In this document: positions 9,001 to 12,000 of the stretch, in pieces
Layout: each line of letters starts with the position of its first letter
Numbering within the stretch: position 1 is the stretch's first letter
From: a virus
Lineage: Duplodnaviria; Heunggongvirae; Uroviricota; Caudoviricetes
Virus record (IMG/VR): IMGVR_UViG_2718218360_000008
DNA: 64,000 bases
Reading direction: 5' to 3' (one strand)
Made by a program: the position numbers

Positions 9001-12000
9001 TGGAGTTTCGGAAGCATAACCGTGTGGTGGATGCTGTGCTGTTAACCTGTCCGGGGATATCGGCGAGTCGTGCAGGTGTGTTTATTATGAAGACGAAATT
9101 ATATGGCAGTAAGGCGTGGATAAAGAAGGCGTATCGTGTAGCGTTGCAGGAGGTTAACAGTGAGTGAAATTAAAGAAATGCCGGTAGTTCGTGACGGATA
9201 TGGCTACTGGACACATCCTGAATATGAAAAATTCTGTGATGGTCGGGAATATATTTCAACGGAAGAGTTTAACGCCTGGATGGAGGAAAATAATCTTCAA
9301 TACGTCCTCTGCTTCAGAGATGAAGGATGTGCTGACCTTGATGCGTGTGATGCTGATATTTCTGCATGGGAACCGGAACGACCAGAGGGCGATGGCTGGT
9401 TTATTGGTTCCATTCATGATACGGAAGATGGCCCGGTTTGTGTCTGGTTGCGAAATAAGGCTGAAGCATAAAGGCGATAAACCAACTAACAACTAAATAC
9501 TGAAGATTTAAATCAGAAACGATTTTTATTAAATCCTTAACCGGAGGGATTCCTGCACCCTCAGAACATCAGGAGGCCGCCCGAAAGGGCGGTAAGAAAT
9601 GAAACATTATTTAGAAAAAAATTACCCACGAAAGAGCAGAACAACAGAGTTTCTGTTTTTCATTCTGTTTATAGTGTTGATGATACCGATATCCCCGCTA
9701 TTACTGGTCTGGATAATTGGAAGGACATTTGAACCAGTTATTGAGCTATATACCGATGTGACATGGGAATCATTCAGCGCACTGCACAATAAAATTAATC
9801 CGTATAAGGAAAACTGATATGAGCACTATTACCAGAGAACGCGCGGAGATTAAATCATACATCACAGGCTTCCTGAGCGACTCGGCGCACGATAACAAGT
9901 CTTCAGACAGCCTGCTGGCTAATGTGTTTCGTATCGCGCTGGCATCACTGGAAGCAGAGCCGATAGCAATGGTAGTGCCTGATGAAATGGATTTGCTTAC
10001 CTGCCATCTCGACGGTGTAACTAAAACATATGCTGATGGCTGGAACGCCTGCCGCGTCGCCATGCTTCAGGCCGGAAACTTTCGGGAAAATAAGAATTCG
10101 TCAACCAACAATTTTCGGGAAATCTCGGAAACGTCAACCAGATCTCCGATAACTCTGGATGGCTGGATAAGCTGTACTGAGCGAATGCCTGAAAAGAGCC
10201 AGAACGTGCTTATTTCGATGAATATCGATAGCGAGGCTGGGCCATTAATATATTCCGCACGCTATCTCGGAGGCACGTTCCGGCGCGGAGGTATAGCAGT
10301 TAGTCCGGGTAATGATCTTAGGCAAGCAACCCACTGGATGTCGCTACCAGAACCGCCGCAGGAGGTGAATCAATGACCTGGCCTGAAGCATTCACAACGG
10401 TAGGAATTGCGATGGCGGTGGCGCTGGTGGTGTATTCGATTTGCCGCTGGGGATAAAAACGGTTTGCGGGAAAAGGATAGTTAAGTAGAATTGCTGCGGG
10501 TGCTTGAGGCTATCTGCCTCGGGCATGAACACCAACGGCAGATAGAGAAAAGCCCCAGTTAACATTACGCGTCCTGCAAGACGCTTAACATTAATCTGAG
10601 GCTCAATCCATGCTGAACACATGTAGGTTAGCCTCTTACGTGCCGAAAGGCAAGGAGAAGCAGGCTATGAAGCAGCAAAAGGCGATGTTAATCGCCCTGA
10701 TCGTCATCTGTTTAACCGTCATAGTGACGGCACTGGTAACGAGGAAAGACCTCTGCGAGGTGCGAATCCGAACCGGTCAGACGGAGGTCGCTGTCTTCGT
10801 AGACTACGAATCTGAGAAGTAAGAGACCAGGCGGGGGAGTAATCTCCCGCCACCTCTGATGTGTCAGGCATCCTCAACGCACCCGCGCTTTACCATACTG
10901 AAAATGCTGTTTGAATGTTCATCTCTGAAAGAGGACTATGAATGAAAAAGGTATTGATTGCAGCACTTATTTCCGGTGTGTCTTTTGGCGCTTTTGCACA
11001 GCAGGGTGGTTTCCAGGGGCCAGAAGCAGAGCGTTCAACAGTAGCGCAGGCAAAAGAACTGAAGGATGATGCATGGGTTATCCTTGAAGGGAGCATCGTT
11101 AAAAAAGTGGGTGATGAACGTTATGAGTTTCGTGACAATAGCGGGACAATTGTCACGGATATTGATGACAGCGTATGGGCCGGGCAGAATGTTTCTCCGA
11201 AAGACAAAGTAAGAATTGAGGGTGAAATTGATAAAGACCTGAGCAGTGTTGAAGTTGATGTAAAGGCACTGAAATTATTAAAGTAACCGCCCCTGCTTGT
11301 TAAGCCCGTCTTACTGACGGGTTTTCTGTTTGTACATTCCGGCGTATTGCCTTACAATTCGCGCAGTCAGCCTGAACAACTGACACCTGCTGTCACCGGA
11401 GAATCCGATGACACAACACATAAAATCCCACAATTCTGAAGCCGACCCGGAAATTAAGCAGGGGAGGCGTTTTCGTGCGCCTCAGTATGGCTGGTTTCAC
11501 TATCTGTTCTGTACGATCGATGAGGCAGATATGCTTCAAGAGGCGTATCTGCGTCGCGGTGTCCGTGTGGAGCGGAGTCTGAACGCTGATCGTCTGACCT
11601 GGACCGTTTCTGTATATCTTCCTGTTCGTGCACATCTGCCACGGACACATGCCTGCTACCGTCAGCGCGTCTGGAGGTAATGTGCGGGTATTACTTCGAC
11701 CTGTTCTGGTTCCGGAACTCGGGCTGGTGGTCCTTAAGCCCGGTCGTGAATCATTGCCAGTTTTTCATCGCGGCAGGGTGCTGGTGGAGCCGGAACCGAA
11801 AAACATGCGGGCGCTGCCATCTGGAGCGGTTCCTGCTGTTCGCCAGCCGCTGGCGGAAGATAAATCACTGCTGCCATTTTTCAGCGATGAGCGGGTGATT
11901 CGTGCAGCTGGCGGCGCTGGTGCACTGTCTGACTGGTTATTACGTCACGTGAAATCCTGCCAGTGGCCACACGGCGATTATCATCACAGCGAAACCGTTA

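What the first reader, a model, noticed from the sequence alone, without database searches (positions are those of the whole stretch)
10373..10822. hok/mok type I toxin locus with an adjacent coupled 27-aa membrane peptide
The Hok-family toxin and overlapping mok frame are clear, implying a sok antisense RNA on the opposite strand near the mok start. Immediately upstream, a 27-aa single-helix peptide is ATGA-coupled to the DUF551 gene. I cannot tell whether the hok copy is functional or silenced.
Basis: partly seen in the sequence, partly recalled or inferred. Interest (0 to 1): 0.45.

Follow-up and report, generated by a model that had tools for sequence, protein, structure and literature searches.

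The report
Prophage hok/sok toxin-antitoxin locus
This is an ordinary, intact copy of the well-known hok/mok/sok killer-gene system, almost identical to the tested hokW-sokW locus of E. coli O157 phage Sp5, and the tiny 27-codon gene beside it is a real but unstudied phage gene that is not part of the system.

Summary
Window 10457-10886 is a complete hok/mok/sok type I toxin-antitoxin module. It has a Hok/Gef toxin (10667-10822, Pfam 4e-23) and an in-frame mok (10610-10822). The antisense Sok (about 10618 to 10548, minus strand) has promoter TTGCCT-N17-TAACCT. The 5' end (tac, 10498-10509) pairs with fbi (10872-10884). The window is 100% identical to E. coli O157/O121 prophages. The module differs at 3 of about 485 nt from hokW-sokW of Sakai prophage Sp5, which was shown to be toxic and Sok-controlled (PMC8621323). 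None of the 3 changes touches a functional element, so the copy is very probably functional, not silenced.

The Rfam 'sok' hit lies on the hok-sense strand, so it marks the hok mRNA leader, not Sok itself.

One real departure from R1 and most relatives: no terminator follows fbi. A ygiW-like gene follows, with the first terminator at 11302-11324.

The 27-aa ORF (10373-10456) shows coding-type conservation. It is 27 codons in 72 of 74 copies, and variation is concentrated at third codon positions. It occurs with and without hok, so it is an independent, unannotated small membrane-protein gene.

Verdict: already known; low interest.

The parts
9819..10376 (+). DUF551 gene (context). Its TGA stop overlaps the ATG of the 27-aa ORF.
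   Evidence: Pfam DUF551 5e-20; PGAP annotation in an identical genome.
10373..10456 (+). 27-codon small ORF, MTWPEAFTTVGIAMAVALVVYSICRWG. Predicted single-pass membrane peptide. An independent conserved gene, not part of hok/sok.
   Evidence: 27 codons in 72 of 74 copies. Entropy by codon position 0.31/0.25/0.76. Stops in the other two frames. KD mean 2.13 over residues 7-24. pN/pS 0.15-0.6. Full-length in 94 phage records at 59-100% identity. Present in 1741 of 5426 E. coli genomes.
10464..10491 (+). Candidate hok promoter: -35 TTGCGG (10464-10469), 16-nt spacer, -10 TAGAAT (10486-10491); +1 at about 10498.
   Evidence: Read from the sequence. The -10 box and +1 GGGTGC align across hok loci. 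The R1-type promoter sits at the equivalent place. Assignment is inferred, not mapped.
10498..10672 (+). hok mRNA 5' leader, which is the Rfam RF01794 'sok' hit on the sense strand. Contains tac, the Sok target region and the mok and hok ribosome-binding sites.
   Evidence: cmscan 113.5 bits, E=4.8e-25, full model 1-157.
10498..10509 (+). tac element: the mRNA 5' end, GGGUGCUUGAGG.
   Evidence: Pairs with fbi in the MFE fold and with 10516-10526 once the 3' end is removed. Covariation.
10516..10526 (+). 5'-proximal alternative partner of tac, forming the hairpin 10500-10510/10516-10526 predicted for the 3'-truncated mRNA.
   Evidence: 96.7% of cells paired across 19 loci, against 31-53% with slid partners.
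10548..10618 (-). Sok antisense RNA (about 71 nt). It has a single-stranded 5' tail over the mok AUG, a long hairpin and a U-run. It covers the mok SD (GAGG 10599-10602) and AUG, but not the hok SD.
   Evidence: Fold -31.5 kcal/mol, z=-5.9. The published SokW probe YO-592 equals window 10590-10619, and SokW has '71-nt' complementarity. The ends are inferred from the promoter spacing and the U-run.
10625..10653 (-). Sok promoter: -35 TTGCCT (10653-10648), 17-nt spacer, -10 TAACCT (10630-10625).
   Evidence: Same position as R1-type TTGCGC-N17-TATCCT. The -10 bases were replaced in Takada's pro-less mutant (primers YO-421/422).
10610..10822 (+). mok reading frame: 70 codons, in frame with hok and sharing its stop.
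   Evidence: A start at -57/-58 is conserved in the family.
10667..10822 (+). hok toxin gene (51 aa); SD AAGGAG at 10652-10657.
   Evidence: Pfam HOK_GEF 4.3e-23. Identical to the Sp5 hokW CDS.
10830..10851 (+). Conserved GC-rich stem-loop just after the hok stop codon.
   Evidence: Aligned across loci.
10859..10884 (+). 3' fold-back region. 10872-10884 is fbi and pairs with tac. 10859-10871 pairs with the mok start (10610-10622).
   Evidence: MFE and pair probability about 1.0 in normal-length and extended transcripts. 98.7% of cells paired, with 3 pairs changed on both sides.
10942..11286 (+). ygiW/ydeI-like BOF (bacterial OB-fold) gene. It replaces the terminator that follows fbi in most hok loci.
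   Evidence: Pfam BOF 2e-33. Junction comparison.
11302..11324 (+). First intrinsic terminator on the + strand downstream of hok.
   Evidence: Scan hit. None found in 10300-11000.

Best explanation
Window 10457-10886 is an intact hok/mok/sok type I toxin-antitoxin module. It sits in a lambdoid prophage of the E. coli O157/O121 type and is a near-identical paralogue of hokW-sokW from Sakai prophage Sp5.

How it works. Steps 1-4 are shown at sequence and structure level here. Toxicity and Sok control are shown experimentally for the Sp5 copy. Step 5 is inferred.

1. A weak promoter (TAGAAT at 10486-10491) makes a stable hok mRNA that starts at about 10498.
2. In the full-length RNA, the 5' end (tac, 10498-10509) pairs with fbi (10872-10884), and the mok start pairs with 10859-10871. 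This locks translation.
3. The short antisense Sok RNA (about 10618 to 10548) comes from TTGCCT-N17-TAACCT on the minus strand. It covers the mok ribosome-binding site and AUG. Because hok translation depends on mok translation, Sok blocks Hok indirectly, and the duplex is cleaved by RNase III.
4. When the 3' end is removed, tac refolds onto 10516-10526 and the RNA becomes translatable. If Sok has decayed by then, the 51-aa Hok inserts into the inner membrane and kills or lyses the cell.
5. Inferred: the module lies in sense orientation inside a phage early operon. Here it sits between P and Q of the pR-type operon. In excised Sp5 it sits at the distal end of the pL operon. Early transcription on induction would therefore run head-on into the Sok promoter and shut it off. 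That would explain the published RecA-dependent loss of SokW and the appearance of HokW.

The 27-aa ORF upstream is a separate, conserved small membrane-protein gene. It is translationally coupled to whichever gene precedes it.
For: Family membership: Pfam HOK_GEF 4e-23 and Rfam RF01794 at 113.5 bits.

Identity: 100% to O157/O121 prophages. Only 3 differences from Sp5 hokW-sokW (10478, 10575, 10830), with identical coding sequence, Sok promoter, tac and fbi.

Fold: the full-length fold has z=-7.6 and shows the tac-fbi helix. Truncation switches tac to a 5' hairpin.

Covariation across 19 loci from Escherichia to Photorhabdus and Pantoea: tac-fbi is 98.7% paired and tac-hairpin 96.7% paired, against 31-55% for slid controls. 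The same tac columns change together with both partners.

Sok: the promoter sits at the same place as in the R1-type locus, and its -10 is the one mutated experimentally.

Experiments on the Sp5 copy: HokW is toxic, SokW counteracts it, RNase III and Hfq contribute, and HokW is made only after RecA-dependent induction as SokW disappears.

Operon context.
Against: Nothing here measures expression or toxicity of this particular copy. The Sok and hok transcript ends are inferred.

The consensus promoter scan found no promoter in 10300-11000. However, it also misses the established R1 Sok promoter, so this is uninformative.

No terminator follows fbi. The R1 model of slow 3'-exonucleolytic activation from a defined 3' end therefore may not apply unchanged.

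The transcriptional-interference step is pure inference. In the published Northern blot, hokW mRNA did not rise after mitomycin C.
Confidence: 0.9

Rival explanations
1. The locus is a decayed, silent hok relic. That is the state of most chromosomal hok loci of E. coli K-12, which are disrupted by IS elements or have lost their leader.
For: Such relics exist in the collected loci. The relE-hokD type (L018) has lost tac, mok and the Sok region. The hokC-type copy L025 has lost its fbi partner. The window copy also lacks the terminator that follows fbi in most relatives.
Against: The promoter, tac, mok, both ribosome-binding sites, the Sok promoter and hairpin, fbi and the Hok CDS are all intact. 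All are identical to the functional Sp5 locus. No IS element or frameshift is present. The terminator-less arrangement is shared with Sp5, where the system works.
Confidence: 0.05
2. The 27-aa ORF is not a gene. On this view it is a chance ORF inside a conserved non-coding boundary or recombination sequence between phage gene modules.
For: PGAP never annotates it. It matches no Pfam or NCBIfam family. Two small-protein studies do not list it in their held supplements. One phage (POCJ13) carries a nonsense codon at codon 3.
Against: It is exactly 27 codons in 72 of 74 copies. Third-position entropy is 0.76, against 0.31 and 0.25 at positions 1 and 2. The other two frames carry stops in 27 and 25 of 27 variants. 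Seven residues are invariant. pN/pS is 0.15-0.6 in diverged pairs. In most inspected loci the start codon overlaps the stop of the upstream gene, whichever gene that is, and an SD precedes it.
Confidence: 0.08
3. The 27-aa membrane peptide is a functional third component of the hok system, for example a modulator of Hok insertion or of lysis timing.
For: It lies directly upstream of hok in 31 of 40 BOF-type loci and 23 of 108 terminator-type loci. Its stop codon is only 7 nt from the hok -35. Both products are small inner-membrane peptides.
Against: It occurs without hok: in front of DUF4222-xis-int, a type II TA pair, and other genes. Hok occurs without it in most terminator-type loci and on plasmids. 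Between the window and Sp5 it is 13% diverged while the hok module is 0.6% diverged, so the two have separate histories.
Confidence: 0.07

Closest known systems
hokW-sokW of Sakai prophage 5 (Stx2 phage VT2-Sakai), Takada et al. 2021, PMC8621323
   Same: The hok/sok module is 99.4% identical (3 of about 485 nt differ). The Hok and Mok coding sequence, Sok promoter, tac and fbi are identical. Both have the same downstream ygiW-like gene and lack a terminator after fbi. Both have a 27-aa ORF directly upstream.
   Different: Genomic position: here the module is between P and Q in the early-right operon of another lambdoid prophage. In Sp5 it is at the right end of the prophage map, downstream of int only after excision. 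Upstream neighbour: here DUF551 is coupled directly to the 27-aa ORF, while Sp5 has an extra gene (orf75) in between. The 27-aa ORF is 13% diverged at nucleotide level.
hok/mok/sok of plasmid R1 (archetype; compared here through an IncFII plasmid locus encoding the identical Hok, L224)
   Same: Same architecture and spacing. The mRNA starts about 168-169 nt upstream of the hok AUG. mok is in frame at -57. The Sok promoter lies in the mok-hok interval. Both have tac/fbi end-pairing and a stem-loop after the hok stop.
   Different: Hok is only 44% identical (paper). The Sok hairpin here carries a 16-nt GC-rich extension relative to the Rfam consensus. R1 has a strong terminator right after fbi, and this locus has none. 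R1 is on a plasmid and serves post-segregational killing. This locus is in a prophage, and the published role of its Sp5 twin is aiding phage release.
hokD (relF) type locus downstream of relBE (K-12 Qin-type; represented here by L018)
   Same: Hok is 92% identical, in a lambdoid prophage with DUF968 and Q genes nearby. fbi is retained and is followed by a terminator.
   Different: In the relE-hokD type, leader homology ends about 20 nt upstream of the hok AUG. There is no tac, mok or Sok region. I recognised the relE 3' end from memory of its C-terminus. The window copy keeps the complete regulatory leader.
Small single-pass membrane proteins such as KdpF (for the 27-aa ORF only)
   Same: Similar size, with one hydrophobic helix.
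   Different: The only hits fall below threshold: KdpF model at E=0.024 and 14.7 bits against a 26.85-bit cut-off, and PHROG 4612 at E=0.019. There is no evidence of relationship.

Membership tests
hok/sok (Hok/Gef) type I toxin-antitoxin family | A toxin of about 50 aa with an N-terminal transmembrane helix and a Hok/Gef domain | tested here: met
   Pfam PF01848 at E=4.3e-23 and 81 bits against a 22-bit cut-off. PHROG 251 at 1e-32.
hok/sok (Hok/Gef) type I toxin-antitoxin family | A mok reading frame that starts upstream of hok and overlaps it, through which hok translation is coupled | tested here: met
   ORF 10610..10822 with SD GAGG at 10599-10602. The -57/-58 start is shared by most family loci and by the R1-type locus. 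The coupling itself was not tested.
hok/sok (Hok/Gef) type I toxin-antitoxin family | A cis-antisense Sok RNA, with its promoter inside the mok-hok interval, complementary to the mok translation start region | tested here: met
   TTGCCT-N17-TAACCT, then a 5' tail, hairpin and U-run (z=-5.9). Positionally homologous to the R1 type. Identical to the sequence whose -10 mutation abolished sokW function. Expression of this copy was not measured.
hok/sok (Hok/Gef) type I toxin-antitoxin family | End-pairing between the mRNA 5' end (tac) and a 3' element (fbi) | tested here: met
   12-bp helix 10498-10509/10872-10884 in the MFE fold, pair probability about 1.0. 98.7% of cells paired, 3 pairs with changes on both sides, slid controls 33-55%.
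hok/sok (Hok/Gef) type I toxin-antitoxin family | An alternative 5' hairpin that uses tac once the 3' end is removed (refolding switch) | tested here: met
   Predicted helix 10500-10510/10516-10526 in truncated RNAs. 96.7% paired, with the same tac columns covarying.
hok/sok (Hok/Gef) type I toxin-antitoxin family | An intrinsic terminator directly after fbi that defines the full-length mRNA 3' end | tested here: not met
   No terminator between 10822 and 10942. Homology to terminator-type loci ends at about 10886. The first terminator is at 11302-11324. Positive control: L016 has one at 924-943. The functional Sp5 locus shares this feature, so it marks a sub-type rather than excluding membership.
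hok/sok (Hok/Gef) type I toxin-antitoxin family | Hok is toxic and Sok neutralises it | not testable with these tools
   Shown for Sp5 hokW-sokW, which has identical Hok, mok and Sok-promoter sequence.
Rfam RF01794 'sok' | Score above the gathering threshold | tested here: met
   113.5 bits against a threshold of 59. The hit is on the hok-sense strand and ends at the hok AUG, so it marks the hok leader.
Any described protein family (for the 27-aa ORF) | A significant match to Pfam, NCBIfam or PHROGs | tested here: not met
   Pfam gave none. NCBIfam gave only KdpF, below its cut-off. PHROG 4612 scored E=0.019.

The most novel reading that the evidence does not exclude
The 27-aa ORF is a translated small membrane protein that works together with Hok, for example by tuning Hok's membrane action or the timing of lysis. 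The pair, with the terminator-less hok-ygiW arrangement, would then form a phage-specific module that early-operon read-through switches on at induction. A weaker version is much more likely (about 0.8): the ORF is simply a genuine, widespread, unannotated phage small-protein family of unknown function.
Probability: 0.07. Interest if true: 0.55.

Novelty: already known. Interest (0 to 1): 0.18.

Why it matters
It matters little for discovery. The locus is a textbook system whose near-identical twin has already been characterised.

Three modest points are useful.

1. This prophage hok copy can be annotated as complete and probably active, with mok and Sok coordinates that PGAP omits.

2. The Sp5/O157 sub-type lacks the terminator after fbi and lies in sense orientation inside phage early operons. 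That offers a concrete, testable answer to the question the hokW paper left open: what removes SokW on induction.

3. A conserved 27-codon membrane-protein gene, present in about a third of complete E. coli genomes, is missed by standard annotation.

Tried and rejected
1. The 27-aa ORF as a deletion remnant of the 131-aa gene seen in Stx phages. Rejected: the same ORF sits intact after that gene in those phages.

2. The 27-aa peptide fused to DUF551 in Shigella, suggested by 121-aa proteins in its 90% cluster. Rejected: those proteins do not contain the peptide. The link comes from mis-framed partial calls.

3. The consensus promoter scan found nothing in 10300-11000. This is not informative, because the same scan misses the established R1 Sok promoter.

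4. My recollection that R1 mok is out of frame with hok did not hold. The R1-type plasmid locus has mok in frame at -57. Out-of-frame (-58) versions do exist in other loci.

6. A full-text search for the peptide string and searches of the supplements of two small-protein studies found nothing.

7. MAFFT did not resolve the one-base bulge in fbi. I removed the bulged base by hand before counting pairs. In addition, the fbi segments were located with RNAduplex, which biases the percentage paired upward. The positions were nonetheless consistent, 40-56 nt after the hok stop.
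Full report
**What is there**

Window 10373-10822 contains three plus-strand reading frames.
- A 27-codon ORF at 10373..10456. Its ATG overlaps the TGA of the DUF551 gene (9819..10376) in ATGA.
- A 70-codon ORF at 10610..10822.
- Nested in the same frame, a 51-codon ORF at 10667..10822.

The 51-aa product matches Pfam HOK_GEF at 4.3e-23 and PHROG 251 'MokW-like host killing' at 1e-32. Rfam RF01794 'sok' hits 10498..10672 at 113.5 bits, E=5e-25. That hit is on the plus strand. It starts at the conserved GGGUGCUUGAGG and ends at the hok AUG, so it marks the hok mRNA leader, not the antisense RNA.

**Source and annotation**

Window 10350-10950 is 100% identical to chromosomal prophages of E. 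coli O157:H7, O121 and related strains. Related sequence occurs in 4730 of 5426 complete E. coli genomes, up to 11 places per genome. PGAP annotates only the 51-aa Hok/Gef CDS. It calls no mok, no Sok and no 27-aa ORF.

**Sok**

On the minus strand the sequence reads TTGCCT (10653-10648), a 17-nt spacer, then TAACCT (10630-10625), then ACATGTG. An RNA starting at about 10618 has a single-stranded 5' tail across the mok AUG. A long hairpin and a U-run ending at about 10548 follow. The fold is -31.5 kcal/mol with z=-5.9.

This RNA covers the mok SD (GAGG, 10599-10602) and AUG. It does not cover the hok SD (AAGGAG, 10652-10657). That matches the indirect control through mok known for R1. An R1-type plasmid locus has TTGCGC-N17-TATCCT at the same position.

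The consensus scan reported no promoter here. It also fails to report the R1 Sok promoter, so that negative carries no weight.

**Comparison with the characterised locus**

Takada et al. 2021 (PMC8621323) showed the following for hokW-sokW of Sakai prophage Sp5.
- HokW is toxic and SokW counteracts it.
- RNase III and Hfq contribute to that antitoxin activity.
- HokW goes to the inner membrane and is produced only after RecA-dependent prophage induction, as SokW disappears.
- Deleting the locus halves phage release.

Their primers fix the sokW -10 at the bases I assigned: the 'pro-less' mutant replaces TAGGTTA, which is TAACCTA on the minus strand. Their SokW probe equals window 10590-10619.

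Direct alignment with VT2-Sakai shows 3 differences in 10457-10941.
- 10478, in the hok promoter spacer.
- 10575, in the loop of the long hairpin.
- 10830, in the stem after the hok stop.

The Hok and Mok coding sequence, Sok promoter, tac and fbi are identical.

**mRNA fold-back elements**

The 398-nt RNA from 10498 folds at -162.6 kcal/mol with z=-7.6.
- 10498-10509 pairs with 10872-10884 (tac with fbi).
- The mok start, 10610-10622, pairs with 10859-10871.

When the 3' end is cut back to 10860 or 10850, the 5' end instead forms a hairpin, 10500-10510 with 10516-10526.

I collected 47 hok loci from Escherichia, Kluyvera, Citrobacter, Photorhabdus, Pantoea and Erwinia. The leader blocks are conserved among them. 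fbi lies 40-56 nt after the hok stop.

On 19 distinct sequences:
- tac-fbi is 98.7% paired, with three pairs changed on both sides.
- The alternative hairpin is 96.7% paired.
- Slid controls give 31-55%.

Columns 4 and 12 of tac change together with both partners. This is the coupled covariation pattern long described for this family (from my own knowledge of Gultyaev, Franch and Gerdes 1997; not re-read here).

Caveat: the fbi segments were located with RNAduplex, and I removed a one-base bulge by hand. That inflates the percentage paired somewhat.

**mok**

A start 57 nt upstream of the hok AUG, in frame, is the common state. It includes the hokC type and the R1-type plasmid locus. Some loci have it at -58, out of frame. 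That pattern fits mok acting through its translation rather than through its peptide.

**One real departure**

In the R1-type locus, and in the relE-hokD type and several other chromosomal loci, fbi is followed directly by a terminator. In L016 it is at 924-943.

In the window and in Sp5, homology breaks after ...GCACCCGC at about 10886. No terminator occurs before the ygiW-like BOF gene (10942..11286), and the first one is at 11302-11324.

In IMG/VR the window-type junction occurs in 42 contigs.

The tac-fbi helix is still predicted with probability about 1.0 in RNAs extended to 11330, extended 5' to 10373, or both. The locked state should therefore survive. How the activating 3' truncation arises in this sub-type is open, and the hokW paper does not discuss it.

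**Context and inferred trigger**

The window prophage runs as follows. A CI-like repressor (4932-5567, minus strand) is followed rightward by YdaT-like, O-like, P, DUF1627, DUF4014, DUF551, the 27-aa ORF, hok/sok, BOF, DUF968, RusA and Q. hok is therefore sense-oriented inside the early-right operon.

In Sp5, N through int run leftward to the left end of the prophage map. The right end carries a leftward array: ant ... DUF551, orf75, the 27-aa ORF, mokW/hokW, ygiW. After excision this array lies downstream of int, much like the lambda b-region genes read from pL (established knowledge of lambda).

In both settings, induced early transcription runs head-on into the Sok promoter. I infer that transcriptional interference shuts Sok off. 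That would account for the published RecA-dependent loss of SokW, whose cause the authors left open. This step is inference only.

**The 27-aa ORF**

I first thought it was a deletion remnant, and that was wrong. In Stx phages the same ORF follows an extra 131-aa gene, with the same ATGA junction.

tblastn finds it full-length in 94 phage records at 59-100% identity.
- Upstream genes differ: DUF551, Ea22, EaA and others.
- Downstream genes differ: hok, a type II TA pair, DUF4222-xis-int and others.
- In 10 of the 11 annotated loci inspected, the upstream CDS ends 1 or 4 nt into its ATG. The exception is Sp5, where the annotated orf75 starts further in.

Across all loci held:
- 72 of 74 copies are exactly 27 codons.
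- Entropy by codon position is 0.31, 0.25 and 0.76.
- The other two frames carry stops in 27 and 25 of the 27 distinct 27-codon variants.
- M1, W3, P4, A6, G11, A15 and W26 are invariant.

pN/pS is 0.15-0.6 for diverged pairs. One phage, POCJ13, has a nonsense codon at codon 3.

Related sequence is present in 1741 of 5426 E. coli genomes. A few annotators have called it 'bacteriophage protein' or 'hypothetical'. It has no Pfam, NCBIfam or solid PHROG match. I found no mention of it in the literature searched.

It sits next to hok in 31 of 40 BOF-type loci and 23 of 108 terminator-type loci. Between the window and Sp5 it is 13% diverged while the hok module is 0.6% diverged.

I conclude it is a genuine, independent small membrane-protein gene of unknown function. 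It tends to sit at the end of 'ea'-type gene arrays and is not a part of hok/sok.

**Verdict**

The observation and the interpretation are both correct. The system is already known, and this copy is very probably active. Two things are not in the literature I could read, and both are of modest interest: the terminator-less wiring into phage early operons, and the unannotated 27-codon gene.

Noticed in passing
window 10498-10672 (+): The Rfam family named 'sok antitoxin' (RF01794) matches the hok-sense strand, from the hok mRNA +1 to the hok AUG. Taken at face value, a hit would place the antitoxin on the wrong strand. The real Sok lies inside it on the opposite strand (about 10618 to 10548).
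   Followed up: yes
window 10886-11324 (+): In this hok sub-type, a ygiW/ydeI-like OB-fold (BOF) gene replaces the terminator that normally follows fbi. hok and BOF may therefore be co-transcribed, ending at the terminator at 11302-11324. The junction occurs in 42 IMG/VR contigs, against at least 120 with the terminator type.
   Followed up: partly
PMC8621323 primers YO-432/YO-433 versus window 10366-10388: The published pBAD18-hokW-sokW construct starts at GAATCAATGACCTGGCC, the start of the 27-aa ORF but without its SD. The 'hokW-sokW' plasmids therefore carry that ORF and make a 5'-extended hok RNA. The published deletion leaves the ORF in place.
   Followed up: partly
window 3238-3289 (-): A DicF antisense sRNA gene (Rfam 75 bits, full length). 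This marks a Qin/dicB-type early-left region in the same prophage.
   Followed up: no
window 14966-15038, 15142-15215 and 15988-16160 (+): Two phage-borne tRNA genes (annotated Ile and Arg in the identical genome) and an STnc100 sRNA match (104.7 bits). They lie downstream of the Q-like gene, as in Stx-type phages.
   Followed up: no
window 1353-9018 versus L001: The recombination, immunity and replication region is present in the window. In strain PV15-279 it is replaced by an IS1203 copy next to a truncated integrase. That prophage sits beside rspAB-ynfA, the Qin site of K-12. The window copy is thus the more complete prophage.
   Followed up: partly
window 44085-44646: A second segment is 94.7% identical to the lysozyme region of the same prophage type. 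This suggests a second lambdoid prophage, or a duplicated lysis module, in the window.
   Followed up: no
L010 (Shigella phage POCJ13) 601-684: The small-ORF homologue carries TGG to TAG at codon 3 while the rest of the frame stays open. The record annotates ORFs on the opposite strand across it. It is probably a recent pseudogene.
   Followed up: no
L025 (E. coli hokC-type locus) and L018 (relE-hokD type): These are examples of decayed hok loci. L025 has lost its fbi partner downstream of hok. In L018 the whole tac/mok/Sok leader is replaced by the 3' end of relE. They were useful as negative comparators for the intact window copy.
   Followed up: partly
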